Part shown: piece by piece, positions 26,409 to 30,548 of the stretch
How the letters are laid out: each line of letters begins with the position of its first letter
Numbering within the stretch: the first letter of the stretch is position 1
DNA from: Picochlorum sp. SENEW3
Lineage: Eukaryota
Assembly (NCBI GenBank): GCA_034226945.1
Contig: CP120457.1
Span: forward strand, 930,001-994,000
Direction of reading: 5' to 3'
Length of the DNA: 64,000 nucleotides
Translations under genes and position numbers: made by a program
The notes under the pieces: generated by a model
Seen by the model: only the letters and a program-made list of their open reading frames with translations
What the model was told of the DNA's origin: nothing
Database searches by the model: none

Positions 26409-28574
26409 ATGTGGTGGGGTTCTTCCTCTCCTGCTCCTGACCCTTTTTCAAAGGTTTCGGAATTTCTTCAAATCCTTGCGGGTACAGACCTGATTGAAGA
26501 GTCTGATGACAATATTTGGAACATAGTATTAAGTATTAGCGATCCGCTGTGTCGATTTGCTCAGGGAAGATGGAACGACGTCGTTCGTGAAAATATTTCA
26601 GGGCTCGGTACGACAGCACAAAGTTTGATCGAATATTTTGGGCTTCGATGCGATATTTGACTGCTTTTGGATGTAATTGTGTAGTGCAAAATTCAAATAC
26701 GACGAGGAATTTGCAAACGTTTTTGTCATGGACAGCTGCAAGGTTGGAAACTCTGCAAGTGACAATGTTGACCAATCATGGTCTATCAAACGTGATCTAT
26801 CTTCAGCGCTTGTGTGTTGGCATGATGATGACCGACTATAGTTCTGATCTAAAGGGTATCTTGGCCTCTGATGGAAAAGGAGGCTCGTCGTTGGTTGACA
26901 GGATGACAGCATCTAGTATCACAGCATTGCTGGAGGTTTGTGATCAGGGGACACCAGGTGTGAAGAGGCCTTTGGAAGGCGATGTATTGGAAATGGAGTT
27001 GCTCAAATTCATAATCACTCTATGTATATTTGAGGGAAATGGGTTGTTGAAGGATGAGATGGGCGTGCTGGACTCCTGTATGAAGAGCCCGGGGATGGAC
27101 AAGCTTGCGTGTGTATTGCTGCATCGTTGGATTCATGCCACCAAGGAAACTCTTCCAAAGGCATGGATTGAGGAAGATGGCGATGTTTGTACTCAGGAAT
27201 CAGCATTGTCATCGATGACCAAAACATTCGTGTCACTTCCATGGCAGGCAACATCCATGTTGACAAGGGCAGCAGATGATGCCAATCCACAGGATACAAG
27301 CAACCTGTATCCGTCAGCTGATATCCTATGTTTTGCCATCTTGATCTTTTATTACCATGAAAGTAGCGCAAAGAAAGCGGTACCCAACGTGTTCAGAGAA
27401 TCTGTGAAGACTATTCAGGATGGATCCAAGACACAGGATCACACAATGATATCCTTCCCCATGTTTGTAGATACAATTGGATCGCGACTATCAGCGTCAG
27501 AATCATCAGCACTGTTATTGTATACTGTATTGCAAGGAAATTCGAGTTTTTATGCGTATTGCATGGTATGTTGATGTTTGTATGGTTGGATGTTTTGCTC
27601 TCTCTCCTCATCACAGTGCTCTTGCGTGTTCCCATTGCAGGCTCGAACTGATGTGGACATCATCATGGTACCCATTCTTCAGTTATTAATGGATTTTGAA
27701 AAGAGAAGTTTGACGCACGTGTACATTCTCATGATCATCATGCTCATCTTTTCTGAGGAGCCATCCCTTGCTCAGAACAGTGGTGACATTGTTCTCAAAT
27801 CCGTCTCATTTTACAAAGCACGGCAGCTGAAAAACATCAAACTCGACTCTCTCATGTATTTAGTATTACTGCACGTGGCACACTATAATATGCTGACGAC
27901 AAAGGATATGTACTTGCAGACAAACACATTGGCAACCTTGGCCAATGTGGGCCCTGCCATACGAGATCTGCATCCTATTGCGTGTCAAAAACTGTTGAAC
28001 ACATTGGAAAAGGTGAATGATAGGTTGGATAAGATAGAGAATTCAGATGGGACGGTGAATCATTCGTTTGGCCCGCTCGATGTCCAGTTGGCATCAGACT
28101 TTGTCAACATCATTTTGGAGGTATTGAATGCCATGATTGTGCACAATATCTCCTCCAACGCCAATTTATTGTATTCATTGATGCATAAGAAAGAATGTAT
28201 TGATAAAATTAGAGCAAAGTCCCAATATAGAGACGTATCAGAAAATATTGGAAGAGTTGTGGAGTATTTTGCAGAGAGAATTGAGCGGAAATCCCAAGCA
28301 CACCATGGAAGCCCATTGACATCTGAAGCCATCCAGGACGTCATTCAGGATTCCATCAAGGAATGGAGAAGTAGTGTATTAAAACCGTCTGTCGATTTGA
28401 AATTCTCATATGAAGAAGGTACGTATTGTGGTTGACACTCTTGTTATCATTATTGTTCCTGAAAATCACACATGGTTGTCTTGTCTTGTGTGTGTAGAAG
28501 CAAGCAATTCGGAATTTTTCGTTCCGTGTATCCTAGACATGATCAAGAAATCACCTTGGATACCAATAAAATAA
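26409..28574 (+). CDS. DYM: Dymeclin; exons 26409-26607, 26685-27565, 27641-28418, 28498-28574
   Basis: Three GT-AG introns keep the frame. Motifs LLLYTVLQGN..ARTDVD, DMYLQTNTLATLAN and LKFSYEEE..EFFVP. The start codon is uncertain (26268 is in frame). Confidence 0.85.
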
Positions 28575-28612
28575 TATTTATAGATGTACATAACACTCGT
28601 GGAAGTATTCAT

Positions 28613-29371
28613 TCATGATGACTGATGAGACAAGAATTGAATCACAATGAATTCAAATATCGCAAGGCCCACAACAATCTGCACAGCAGATTGAAAAGTT
28701 CTCTCATCCTCCTCCTTATCGTACAATCTCATCGTCCTAAAACTAGCAGTCTCCAAGTATGTCCCATAGATTGCCCTCCAAAACCCCATAACACCACACA
28801 CCTGAACTGCTGACACCCATGGCTCAAACAATCCGCTCACAGCAAGAGGCAACGTATCCGCCCATCCTTGCTCACCCACCAACACACCATTCTCCTGAGA
28901 CGCAACCAAGACCAACCAACTGGCATCAACAGGCATAGAAACCAGCCAGACAAACAACATATTCTTCAACAAACTGTGCAGTCGTTCAGCTGTCCTCAAC
29001 GAATATCCACCGGAAAGCAGCGACACAGCCACCCATGTCGAACATACTGTCGAACTAAATGATATAAATTCTATAAATCTCTCAGGATGAAACTTGAGAG
29101 GGGCCAATAGACCAGGGAAATGGGGCGAATTGATGATTGAAAAGATTTGTTTACAGGAGCAAAAGCTGAAAAGCACGAGCACATCCCCCACGAGTAGTTC
29201 CTCATTTTCAACCTCATAGTGTGCTTTAATAGGCACACATCTACCCACGCGAGCCCTATTGTATCCAAAATAGTGCCTCTGTGGTGGTTGAGTTTCGGAA
29301 GAAGAAACCCTATCAGAAACTCTACGACCCAGTCTGCAAAAAGGGCGATCTATTGCTCTGTATCCAATCAT
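28613..29371 (-). CDS. Hypothetical plastid multi-pass membrane protein
   Basis: R/S-rich N-terminus and several hydrophobic helices (LLVGDVLVLFSF...). Confidence 0.7.
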   Translation of the reverse strand: MIGYRAIDRPFCRLGRRVSDRVSSSETQPPQRHYFGYNRARVGRCVPIKAHYEVENEELLVGDVLVLFSFCSCKQIFSIINSPHFPGLLAPLKFHPERFIEFISFSSTVCSTWVAVSLLSGGYSLRTAERLHSLLKNMLFVWLVSMPVDASWLVLVASQENGVLVGEQGWADTLPLAVSGLFEPWVSAVQVCGVMGFWRAIYGTYLETASFRTMRLYDKEEDERTFQSAVQIVVGLAIFEFIVIQFLSHQSS

Positions 29372-29410
29372 TACATGACGTATTCAGAAACTAAATATCA
29401 ATTGGTAATA

Positions 29411-30548
29411 TTATTCATACACACGGCATTCGTCAGCTGAAGGATCTTGCTCACAGTACTGCTCCAGAGGATCCTCTGCTGCTGGCGGGGATGGAGGATT
29501 CAACCAGAACGAGCCAGGTGTCGTCAGGTCATCGAGACTAAAGTTCTCTGACCCTTCATCTCCAATGCAGTCAAACACGGCATCAGCATCACTGAAATCC
29601 TCTCCCTTTGTATAATACGACTCTGTGACAACCACTCTCATTCCAGCTGCCTTTCCAGCACTGAGTCCAATCTTGCTATCTTCAATCACAACACAGCGAG
29701 CAGGATCAACACCGAGTTCCTTTGCTGCGAGGTTGTAGATATCTGGCGCAGGCTTCTTCTTGGGTACCACATCACCAGCAAATACTCTCATGTTGGCAGC
29801 AATCTTGTCACCAAGCAACACCTTGACAATGTTGCTGACAGCGCGTTCATTGGATGTTGAGCACACAGCCACCTTGACACCCGCATCCATGGCTTCATGA
29901 ATCAAACGCACCACCCCAGGACGAACAGGAAGCTTTCCGCTTTCTATGAGTTCATTGAATATATCAGTCTTCATCTCATGAAGCTCTTTCAAGAATGCTT
30001 TCCTCTCCTCTGGATTTTTGATAGATGCCCAAGGCTCCACAGACTCATTCTGGCTAAAGTACGCATTCATCCTCTCTTTTCCACCTCCAACTTCAAGCAA
30101 CACACCATACTGTTCCAGACTCCAAGTATGAGGAATGCCTTTCCTTTCAAAAGCTTTGTTAAATGCCACTCTATGCCCTTCTGCTTCCGTGTCAACCAAG
30201 ACACCATCACAATCAAACAATAAAGCTTCAGGCCTGCATTGGTACATCAGTATCATTCGTATATTCCATTGCATTCTTCTTTGTTTTCATCATACGAGAA
30301 AAACATGCAATGACGACGCACCAATCAATATTCCTCAGAGCAGCAGCACTGCAGTTCCTCCTCTGCCTTGCTGACACTCGAGTCCCCCTGATGCATCCAG
30401 CCCCTCTCGATATGCGAGGTGAATGGAAAGAATTGTGCTGCTGCTGCCCATACTGTTGCGTCCTCAAGCAGTAGACCTTCTTGCTCTGAACACCATGTGT
30501 TGCAAGACAAGGCACATGTGCCATCCTCTGCATTGTCATTGTCATCAT
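29411..30548 (-). CDS. CBBY: CbbY-like HAD phosphatase (XuBP phosphatase), plastid, with CP12-like C-terminal extension; exons 30548-30322, 30233-29411
   Basis: ALLFDCDGVLVDTEAEGHRVAFN, GGGKERM, VAVCSTSNE, KKKPAPDIY and VIEDS. The tail is EDPLEQYCEQDPSADECRVYE. Confidence 0.93.

What the first reader, a model, noticed from the sequence alone, without database searches (positions are those of the whole stretch)
29411..29476. CbbY phosphatase fused to a CP12-like redox tail
Seen: after the HAD domain and a Pro-rich linker (LNPPSPPAA), the protein ends EDPLEQYCEQDPSADECRVYE, with Cys-x8-Cys. Established: this is the C-terminal motif of CP12 (DPLEEYCxxNPxxxECRxY), which binds GAPDH and is reused as a regulatory extension in GapB and Chlamydomonas ADK3. 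CbbY removes the Rubisco inhibitor XuBP. Inference: metabolite repair here may be thioredoxin-gated or tethered to GAPDH/PRK complexes. I do not know of a characterised CbbY-CP12 fusion.
Basis: partly seen in the sequence, partly recalled or inferred. Interest (0 to 1): 0.78.

Follow-up and report, generated by a model that had tools for sequence, protein, structure and literature searches.

The report
CbbY phosphatase with CP12-type tail
A fast-growing green microalga (Picochlorum) makes its Rubisco-inhibitor-clearing phosphatase CbbY with the short redox-sensitive tail that the Calvin-cycle switch protein CP12 uses to grip GAPDH; this pairing was not found in print, and what it does is untested.

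Summary
On the minus strand, a two-exon gene (30548..30322 and 30233..29411) encodes a 349-residue protein with three parts. There is a 76-residue basic leader. The HAD core is 58% identical to Arabidopsis CbbY (PDB 4UAV). The last 21 residues, EDPLEQYCEQDPSADECRVYE, match Pfam CP12 above its curated cut-off (25.9 and 29.0 bits against 22.7). They align with the GAPDH-binding ends of CP12-2 and GapB.

RNA-like contigs from three studies splice the 88-base intron. They run unspliced through the tail and the stop codon, against a public 586-residue model that joins CbbY to the next gene.

The tail was seen only in one clade of Chlorellales (Picochlorum and a sister group). There it replaces the usual green-algal CbbY C-terminal extension. 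Its Cys loop is better conserved than the enzyme core (0.91 against 0.86).

The best reading is a redox-dependent GAPDH-docking tail, as reported for ADK3 and GapB. No binding or redox effect was tested, and the complex predictor was unavailable. Some relatives have lost the loop.

Nine literature searches found no description of this fusion. A Picochlorum fibrillin carries the same kind of tail.

The parts
30322..30548 (-). Exon 1. It starts at the ATG at 30548..30546. It encodes a 75-76-residue leader that looks like a transit peptide and ends ...AAALRNID-W.
   Evidence: The frame was read. The spliced CDS is 1050 nt, giving 349 aa plus stop. The leader has 12 basic residues and 1 acidic residue in 75. 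The same N-terminus appears in named Picochlorum gene models and in an MMETSP transcript ORF. Plastid targeting is inferred from composition only.
30234..30321 (-). Intron 1, 88 nt, GT..AG.
   Evidence: Contigs of 3 of 4 laid runs (X3, X7, X9, from three studies) join 30232 to 30321 and skip 88 bases. The fourth run (X1, probably DNA) reads through. The intron ends are GTGCGT...ATGCAG.
29411..30233 (-). Exon 2: the HAD/CbbY core, the linker, the CP12-type tail and the stop codon, with no further intron.
   Evidence: Single open frame. X7 record 22 and X9 record 24 cover 29388/29383..30232 without a break. X3 record 11 covers 28496..29588 without a break.
29504..30232 (-). CbbY-type HAD phosphatase core (precursor residues 77-319). 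It includes motif I FDCDGV (Asp83, Asp85) and the TTPGSFW stretch conserved in green algae.
   Evidence: Pfam Hydrolase 98.1 bits and HAD_2 75.9 bits. NCBIfam TIGR01509 79.6 bits against a cut-off of 29.4. PDB 4uav (Arabidopsis CbbY) E 4.8e-87 and Rhodobacter CbbY 4uar E 3.2e-42. AF2 model mean pLDDT 92.3. Foldseek top hit 4uav with 58% identity.
29477..29503 (-). Pro-rich linker LNPPSPPAA (residues 320-328).
   Evidence: Read directly. pLDDT is about 58 for model residues 241-250. Mean pairwise identity is 0.61 among the tail-bearing homologues.
29414..29476 (-). CP12-type C-terminal module EDPLEQYCEQDPSADECRVYE (residues 329-349). It contains Cys336 and Cys345 (C-x3-P-x4-C) and the terminal Glu349.
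   Evidence: PF02672 scores 25.9 and 29.0 bits against a gathering score of 22.7. It aligns to CP12-2 and the GapB extension. AF2 predicts a helix at model residues 255-262 with pLDDT 67-79. The Cys loop to the end has mean identity 0.91 among 11 homologues. The two differences seen here in other strains' contigs (29423, 29486) are synonymous.
29411..29413 (-). TAA stop codon, which ends the protein at ...VYE.
   Evidence: It is retained in contigs of X3, X7 and X9 that run 33 or more bases past the donor site of the public merged model.

Best explanation
This is the Picochlorum orthologue of CbbY, the HAD phosphatase reported to destroy the Rubisco misfire inhibitor xylulose-1,5-bisphosphate. 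In this lineage the usual green-algal C-terminal extension has been replaced by the C-terminal GAPDH-binding module of CP12.

Shown here:
- The gene has two exons.
- Its transcripts keep the tail and the stop codon.
- The core is CbbY-like in sequence and in predicted fold.
- The tail matches the CP12 profile and is the best-conserved part of the protein.
- The tail-bearing proteins form one clade.

Inferred, by analogy with CP12, the GapB extension and Chlamydomonas ADK3:
- In the oxidised (dark) stroma, Cys336 and Cys345 form a disulfide that folds the tail into a helix-loop.
- The folded tail inserts into the coenzyme cleft of NAD-bound A4-GAPDH. The terminal Glu349 takes the place of GapB Glu362 or CP12 Glu79 against the arginine that reads the 2'-phosphate of NADP.
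- Thioredoxin reduces the disulfide in the light and releases the enzyme.

The likely net effect is redox-dependent tethering or sequestration of CbbY on GAPDH, with some local inhibition of NADPH-dependent GAPDH activity. It is less likely to be a direct switch on the phosphatase. The tail lacks the PRK-binding half of CP12, so PRK would not be bound directly.
For: - Identity of the core.
- Identity of the tail: it matches CP12 HMM positions 49-70 above the gathering score and aligns residue by residue with CP12-2 (DPLEEYCKDNPETNECRTYD) and GapB ([20 protein letters not shown]).
- Features the literature ties to GAPDH binding are present. These are the CxxxPxxxxC motif (PMC9406205 and PMC13491260, passages), a terminal or penultimate Glu (GapB E362 with R77; Chlamydomonas CP12 E79 with R82; PMC4436894, passages) and an acidic residue before the second Cys (CP12 Glu69 clashes with the NADP 2'-phosphate; PMC6800369, passages; the exact residue equivalence was not checked).
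- Constraint: the Cys loop to the end has mean identity 0.91 (minimum 0.86). The core has 0.86 (minimum 0.76), the linker 0.61 and the pre-Cys segment 0.41, among 11 tail-bearing sequences.
- Expression: contigs of 3 of 3 RNA-like runs splice intron 1 and keep the tail and the stop. An MMETSP transcript ORF marked complete (P0128) ends in VYE.
- Same compartment: the leader is basic and nearly free of acidic residues.
- Single origin: the 11 tail rows form one clade with SH-aLRT 99 in a quick IQ-TREE of 59 rows.
- Source of the tail: its nearest relatives outside CbbY are green-algal CP12s ending DPLE(K/Q)(F/Y)CE.DPSADECRVYED.
- Precedent: ADK3's CP12-like tail is reported to bind GAPDH and to inhibit its NADPH-dependent activity (PMC13491260 and PMC9406205, passages).
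Against: - No binding, redox or activity test was possible. The complex predictor was unavailable.
- GAPDH and CP12 of Picochlorum could not be examined, because no genome is held for the window.
- The DPLE.Y helix before the first Cys is not kept in the sister group (TMQEEVC...).
- The tail is dispensable in at least some relatives. Locus L029 (79% identity) and cluster members P0149-P0151 lack the Cys loop and change frame after TMQEE.
- One cluster member, P0154, has Phe in place of the first Cys.
- The AF2 confidence for the tail is only 67-79, and 49 for the last three residues.
- From general knowledge, not measured here, GAPDH is much more abundant than CbbY. A regulatory effect on GAPDH would then be small, and the benefit of parking CbbY in the dark is not obvious.
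Confidence: 0.55

Rival explanations
1. The tail is an intramolecular redox switch. When oxidised it folds back on the CbbY cap or active site, or changes oligomerisation. XuBP phosphatase activity would then be thioredoxin-gated without any partner protein.
For: GapB shows that a CP12-type tail can give autonomous redox control of the enzyme that carries it (PMC4436894 and PMC13491260, passages). Other stromal phosphatases are thioredoxin-regulated, and the regulation of XuBPase is described as little studied (PMC9833046, passages). The two Cys residues are invariant in the 11 aligned tail-bearing sequences.
Against: In GapB the tail acts on GAPDH's own coenzyme site, which is its cognate target. 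Nothing suggests that a HAD active site offers an equivalent pocket. The residues kept most strictly (C..DP.ADECRVYE) are those shared with free CP12, not residues special to CbbY. The same tail sits on an unrelated PAP-fibrillin in Picochlorum, which argues for a common external partner. The AF2 output gave no contact information.
Confidence: 0.15
2. The tail has a CP12-like side role unrelated to GAPDH docking, such as stabilising the protein, a chaperone-like effect or metal binding. It could also dock to a different partner.
For: CP12 is described as having moonlighting activities (PMC5931566, passages). The pre-Cys helix is variable while the loop is fixed. This could fit a small, self-contained disulfide or metal loop.
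Against: The conserved elements include the terminal aromatic-acidic pair and the acidic residue before the second Cys. The structural literature links these to the GAPDH coenzyme site.
Confidence: 0.12
3. The tail is a nearly neutral leftover of a lineage-specific exon or segment capture from a CP12 gene, with no present function.
For: It is restricted to one clade. It has been lost by deletion in some members.
Against: The 14 terminal residues are more conserved than the catalytic core across proteins whose cores differ by up to 24%. The differences seen in the tail and linker between strains are synonymous, 2 of 2. The flanking linker diverges freely.
Confidence: 0.1
4. The C-terminal position of the tail is an artefact. 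The true product would be the 586-residue protein of the public model, in which an 87-base intron (29334..29420) removes Tyr-Glu-stop and joins CbbY to the downstream ORF, making the CP12 motif internal.
For: A canonical GT..AG pair exists. Splicing it reproduces the public record P0123 exactly. A second haplotype model in another strain (P0127) does the same. One contig (X3 record 11) spans both ORFs.
Against: No joint at that site was found in any of the 4 runs laid. Contigs of X3, X7 and X9 run 33 or more bases past the proposed donor without splicing. Contigs can miss rare isoforms. Other Picochlorum models (P0122, P0129) and an MMETSP transcript ORF (P0128) end at VYE. The downstream ORF resembles stand-alone chlorophyte proteins of about 275 aa (Atlas feature score 0.91, a lead only). 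In the merged model the CP12 score falls below the gathering score, to 21.2 bits.
Confidence: 0.04

Closest known systems
Chlamydomonas reinhardtii adenylate kinase 3 (ADK3) with a CP12-like tail
   Same: A stromal enzyme that is not GAPDH carries only the C-terminal Cys-loop module of CP12 at its very end. The tail is reported to bind GAPDH and to inhibit its NADPH-dependent activity (PMC13491260 and PMC9406205, passages).
   Different: The host enzyme differs: a HAD sugar-bisphosphate phosphatase against a nucleotide kinase. The lineage differs: Chlorellales against Chlamydomonadales. No ADK3 sequence was compared here, and no biochemistry exists for the CbbY fusion.
GapB C-terminal extension of plant A2B2-GAPDH
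   Same: The same module in the same position. Both end in aromatic-Glu as the last residues (LYE in GapB, VYE here). The tail aligns to 2pkq_O and 2pkr_O over 32 residues.
   Different: In GapB the tail regulates the enzyme it is attached to, which is its cognate target. Here the carrier is unrelated to GAPDH, so any GAPDH effect must act in trans.
Canonical CP12 (Pfam PF02672), for example Arabidopsis CP12-2 in 6KEZ/3QV1
   Same: The tail matches profile positions 49-70 of 70. The nearest non-CbbY sequences are green-algal CP12s ending DPLE..C..DPSADECRVYED.
   Different: The N-terminal Cys pair and the AWD_VEEL PRK-binding motif are absent. It is not a free, conditionally disordered scaffold and cannot bridge GAPDH to PRK.
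CbbY / XuBP phosphatase (Arabidopsis At3g48420, 4UAV; Rhodobacter sphaeroides CbbY, 4UAR-4UAU)
   Same: 58% identity and rmsd 1.2 A to 4UAV over 238 columns. The HAD motifs are kept.
   Different: The crystallised chains aligned only to query residue 233 (4uav) or 228 (4uar), that is, not to the tail. Other green algae carry a different extension...SFWLNPPLPMDEEGNW...DVDPL.
Cyanobacterial CBS-CP12 fusion proteins (for example 5NMU)
   Same: CP12-derived sequence is fused to another domain. There is a weak match to the tail (5nmu_A, E 0.71).
   Different: These are reported only in cyanobacteria and have a different architecture, CBS pairs plus CP12 (PMC9406205). One such protein is stated not to form the ternary complex (PMC6800369).

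Membership tests
CP12-like C-terminal extension (the class of the GapB extension and the ADK3 tail) | A Cys pair spaced C-x3-P-x4-C at the extreme C-terminus | tested here: met
   C336-EQD-P-SADE-C345, four residues from the end. It is invariant in the 11 tail-bearing homologues aligned. One further cluster member, P0154, has Phe at the first Cys.
CP12-like C-terminal extension (the class of the GapB extension and the ADK3 tail) | Significant match to the C-terminal part of the CP12 profile | tested here: met
   PF02672 positions 49-70, 25.9 and 29.0 bits against a gathering score of 22.7.
CP12-like C-terminal extension (the class of the GapB extension and the ADK3 tail) | A terminal or penultimate acidic residue after an aromatic residue (GapB E362, Chlamydomonas CP12 E79) | tested here: met
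   The protein ends ...RVYE. The sister group ends ...RVYED. The roles of the residues are taken from PMC4436894, passages.
CP12-like C-terminal extension (the class of the GapB extension and the ADK3 tail) | Redox-dependent binding to NAD-bound GAPDH | not testable with these tools
   The complex predictor was unavailable. No genome is held from which to fetch the organism's GAPDH.
Canonical CP12 (full-length regulator) | An N-terminal Cys pair and the central AWD_VEEL motif that bind PRK | tested here: not met
   Only profile positions 49-70 match. No such motif lies upstream of the tail in the 349-residue product. It is therefore not filed as a CP12 protein.
HAD superfamily, subfamily IA | Motif I DxDG, motif II S/T, motif III Lys and motif IV acidic pair, and a profile score above the cut-off | tested here: met
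   FDCDGV, CSTSNE, PKKKP and IEDS are present and invariant or nearly so in 59 homologues. PF00702 98.1 bits, PF13419 75.9 bits. TIGR01509 79.6 bits against 29.4.
CbbY / XuBP phosphatase | Closest solved relatives are the characterised CbbY enzymes, with the same fold | tested here: met
   4uav E 4.8e-87. Rhodobacter CbbY E 3e-42. The next family, beta-phosphoglucomutase-like, has E 1e-15 or weaker. Foldseek ranks 1-4 are CbbY structures.
CbbY / XuBP phosphatase | Selective hydrolysis of xylulose-1,5-bisphosphate over RuBP | not testable with these tools
   This needs an enzyme assay. The primary paper (Bracher et al. 2015) is not held, so the specificity residues were not checked. No CbbY-specific NCBIfam model matched.

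The most novel reading that the evidence does not exclude
In Picochlorum the C-terminal loop of CP12 may have become a portable, redox-switched 'dock on GAPDH' tag. It is attached to at least two unrelated plastid proteins: the Rubisco-repair phosphatase CbbY (this window) and a PAP-fibrillin (P0197 of P. renovo, P0192). GAPDH would then act as a dark/oxidation-controlled scaffold that gathers or parks several activities, beyond the classical GAPDH-CP12-PRK complex. Through CbbY, Rubisco inhibitor clearance would be coupled to stromal redox and NAD(P)H state.
Probability: 0.3. Interest if true: 0.75.

Novelty: new variant of a known kind. Interest (0 to 1): 0.55.

Why it matters
- A 2022 review describes the regulation of XuBPase/CbbY as little studied (PMC9833046, passages). 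A natural fusion to a known thioredoxin- and NAD(P)H-sensitive docking module gives a concrete, testable link between Rubisco inhibitor clearance and the GAPDH/CP12 redox switch.
- It adds a new carrier to the short printed list of enzymes with CP12-type tails: GapB, ADK3 and argininosuccinate lyase. A 2015 review asked whether more Calvin-cycle-related enzymes would acquire such tails (PMC4436894), and this is an example.
- Picochlorum is a fast-growing alga of biotechnological interest. Genetic tools for some strains are recalled but were not checked here. Tail deletion and Cys-to-Ser tests may therefore be feasible.
- The public 586-residue 'CBBY-like protein' model hides the C-terminal nature of the tail and probably needs splitting into two genes.

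Tried and rejected
- Whole genome of the window: none is held. The organism's GAPDH, PRK, canonical CP12 and any second CbbY copy could therefore not be examined.
- The look-up of sequencing runs: no RNA holder is listed on record. Runs X3, X7 and X9 are treated as RNA-like only because their contigs carry the GT..AG exon joint.
- X7 and X9 contigs stop at 29388 and 29383. This is only a weak hint of a 3' end. Uncovered bins are not used as evidence.
- Metagenome scan with the CbbY alignment: none of the 80 loci carries the tail motif. There was one chance hit on the opposite strand of L080. The best loci were only 77-79% identical, so the scan did not sample Picochlorum itself.
- Tail-less models P0006-P0009 and P0021 (86-88% and about 80% identical, ending just after WLNPP) may be truncated at an intron. 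Their DNA could not be fetched, so they were left out of the tree and are not counted as true absences.
- The search of earlier findings: nothing on this fusion, this place or this genome. The notes on viral half-CP12 genes did not bear on it.
- Bracher et al. 2015 is not held.
- The supplements of PMC13491260 do not list Picochlorum.
- The 'CP12' hits in Picochlorum papers are accession numbers such as CP120453.
- The bare regex search is not specific.
- The NCBIfam equivalog models were all far below their cut-offs, so no bacterial enzyme name applies.

Full report
**What is there**

The finding lies at the 3' end of a minus-strand gene. The long frame 29411..30286 reads through a HAD domain and ends ...TTPGSFWLNPPSPPAAEDPLEQYCEQDPSADECRVYE, followed by TAA. 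Upstream, a second frame starts at the ATG at 30548. It is joined to the main frame by an 88-base GT..AG intron (30234..30321).

I predicted this intron from the sequence, and contigs of three public runs from three studies (X3, X7, X9) confirm it: they join 30232 to 30321. A fourth run (X1, probably DNA) reads through.

The spliced CDS is 1050 bases, giving 349 residues. The first 75 residues have 12 basic residues and 1 acidic residue. This looks like a plastid transit peptide, but that reading rests on composition only.

**The core**

- Pfam gives Hydrolase (98.1 bits) and HAD_2 (75.9 bits).
- NCBIfam passes only the general HAD-IA model.
- Against solved structures, the best match by far is Arabidopsis CbbY, At3g48420 (4uav, E 4.8e-87). 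Rhodobacter CbbY follows (E 3e-42). Beta-phosphoglucomutase-like enzymes come at E 1e-15 or weaker.
- An AlphaFold2 model built on 59 homologues has mean pLDDT 92.3. Its best Foldseek hits are the four CbbY entries; 4uav has TM 0.93, rmsd 1.2 A and 58% identity.

I file the core as a CbbY orthologue. XuBP selectivity itself cannot be tested here, and the primary paper is not held. The function is quoted from a review (PMC9833046, passages).

**The tail**

- The Pfam CP12 model matches its positions 49-70 of 70. It scores 25.9 bits on the ORF and 29.0 bits on the last 49 residues, above the gathering score of 22.7.
- A phmmer search of PDB chains aligns the tail with Arabidopsis CP12-2 (E about 6e-4), a cyanobacterial CP12 peptide and the GapB C-terminal extension.
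- The CxxxPxxxxC pair, an acidic residue before the second Cys and an aromatic-Glu C-terminus are all present.
- Literature passages link these features to GAPDH binding. They describe the terminal or penultimate Glu pairing with the arginine that reads the NADP 2'-phosphate. They also describe exclusion of NADP(H).
- The PRK-binding half of CP12 is absent, so this is a CP12-type tail and not a CP12 protein.
- A bare pattern search is not specific. The case rests on the profile score and on conservation.

**Is the tail really made?**

A public model (P0123, named 'CBBY-like protein' of Picochlorum sp. SENEW3, 586 aa) splices 29420 to 29334. This removes Tyr-Glu-stop and joins the next ORF. Applying that splice to the window reproduces P0123 exactly.

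The evidence is against that model:

- None of the four laid runs shows that joint.
- Contigs of X3, X7 and X9 run 33 or more bases past the proposed donor without splicing.
- Other Picochlorum models (P0122, P0129) and an MMETSP transcript ORF (P0128) end at VYE.
- The downstream ORF resembles stand-alone chlorophyte proteins (Atlas score 0.91, a lead only).

Contigs can miss rare isoforms, so a minor spliced form is not excluded.

**Distribution and origin**

Of the 120 best homologue clusters, 6 carry the tail (P0002, P0003, P0004, P0005, P0011, P0014), all at 77-99% identity. A search with the tail region alone found the same six, plus three hits that matched only the linker.

Named members place the window in Picochlorum.

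In a quick IQ-TREE of 59 core sequences, the 11 tail-bearing rows form one clade (SH-aLRT 99). The clade is nested among Nannochloris, Chlorella and Micractinium. The careful search did not finish, and I left out tail-less models that may be truncated.

Other green algae have a different conserved extension, SFWLNPPLPMDEEGNW...DVDPL. In locus L001 it lies on a separate exon. The CP12 module therefore replaced that extension after WLNPP.

The nearest sequences outside CbbY are green-algal CP12s ending DPLE(K/Q)(F/Y)CE.DPSADECRVYED. A CP12 gene of the same broad lineage is the likely donor.

**Constraint**

Mean pairwise identity among the 11 tail-bearing proteins:

| Region | Mean identity | Minimum |
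|---|---|---|
| Cys loop to the end | 0.91 | 0.86 |
| Core | 0.86 | 0.76 |
| Linker | 0.61 | 0.43 |
| Pre-Cys segment | 0.41 | 0.00 |

Of 18 listed strain differences in the CDS, 12 are synonymous, including both in the tail and linker. A further 13 differences were not shown by the tool.

Against strict necessity:

- Locus L029 and members P0149-P0151 of the sister group lack the Cys loop and shift frame after TMQEE.
- P0154 has Phe at the first Cys.

**Mechanism**

The best-supported reading, at about 0.55, is the one established for CP12 and the GapB extension and reported for ADK3. Oxidation closes the Cys336-Cys345 disulfide. The folded tail then docks in the coenzyme cleft of NAD-bound GAPDH, with Glu349 against the NADP-reading arginine. 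Thioredoxin reduction releases it.

Every step after 'the tail is present, expressed and conserved' is inference. Rivals are an intramolecular switch on CbbY (0.15), another CP12-like side role or partner (0.12), a near-neutral relic (0.10) and the merged-gene model (0.04).

**Novelty**

Nine full-text searches found no description of a CbbY-CP12 fusion. Their term sets were:

- CbbY + CP12
- CP12 + haloacid dehalogenase
- CP12-like + fusion
- Picochlorum + CP12
- Picochlorum + CbbY
- CbbY + XuBP + redox
- CP12 + C-terminal extension + argininosuccinate lyase
- fibrillin + CP12
- XuBP + CP12

(fibrillin + CP12) bears on the fibrillin fusion rather than on CbbY.

Review passages list GapB, ADK3, argininosuccinate lyase and cyanobacterial CBS-CP12 as carriers. 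Subscription journals, and domain-architecture tables in databases, were not searchable.

I rate it a new variant of a known kind: a known module on a new carrier enzyme.

**Second carrier**

A Picochlorum renovo PAP-fibrillin fragment (P0197) and a full-length relative (P0192) carry the same kind of tail. P0192 scores 169.9 bits on PF04755 and 25.7 bits on PF02672. This suggests that the module is used as a portable tag in this lineage.

Noticed in passing
window 28613..30548 (minus strand): The public 586-aa 'CBBY-like protein' model (P0123) joins CbbY to the next ORF through a GT..AG intron at 29334..29420. P0127, in another strain, does the same. The window reproduces P0123 exactly with that splice. 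No contig of the 4 runs shows the joint, and 3 runs read through the donor. This is probably two genes wrongly merged.
   Followed up: yes
window 29369..29413 and 28496..29588: The downstream ORF (252 aa, no Pfam match) has its only plausible ATG at 29371..29369, 39 bases after the CbbY stop. A TGTAA lies at 29371..29375 and overlaps that ATG; from memory, TGTAA is the usual green-algal poly(A) signal. One RNA-like contig (X3 record 11) spans both ORFs. The two transcripts therefore overlap, or a bicistronic RNA exists.
   Followed up: partly
P0197 (named Picochlorum renovo NNA_003039), P0192, P0193: A PAP-fibrillin (PF04755) carries a CP12-type tail, ...DPLE(E/K)FCEEDPSADECRVYED, which scores 25.7-28.9 bits on PF02672. 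The fibrillin + CP12 search listed 10 of 12 papers, none relevant by title or abstract start. This is a second, unrelated carrier of the tail in the same genus.
   Followed up: partly
L001:3100-3650, and the C-termini of P0010, P0016-P0018, P0035, P0042, P0044: Many green-algal CbbY proteins share an uncharacterised C-terminal extension, TTPG|SFWLNPPLPMDEEGNW...DVDP(L/F). In L001 it lies on its own exon after an intron at TTPG|SFW. Several database models (for example P0029 and P0030) read into that intron instead.
   Followed up: partly
L029:1700-1850; P0149-P0151: In the GC-rich sister group, some contigs read TMQEE-G-VYED*. The roughly 35 bases that encode the Cys loop are missing and the frame is shifted, giving ...GVRGLGGGV*. 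This is a natural loss of the tail and is seen in several sources.
   Followed up: partly
P0207 (MMETSP transcript, 119 aa) and P0198: This is a CP12-like protein with a transit-peptide-like leader and a DPSADECRVYED end. It has no N-terminal Cys pair, and AAWEKVENL stands in place of AWD_VEEL. The species is not given.
   Followed up: no
P0163 (MEO2194176.1): An algal CbbY of the sister group is filed in a public record as 'MAG: HAD family hydrolase [bacterium]'. This is probably a eukaryotic contig binned into a bacterial genome.
   Followed up: no
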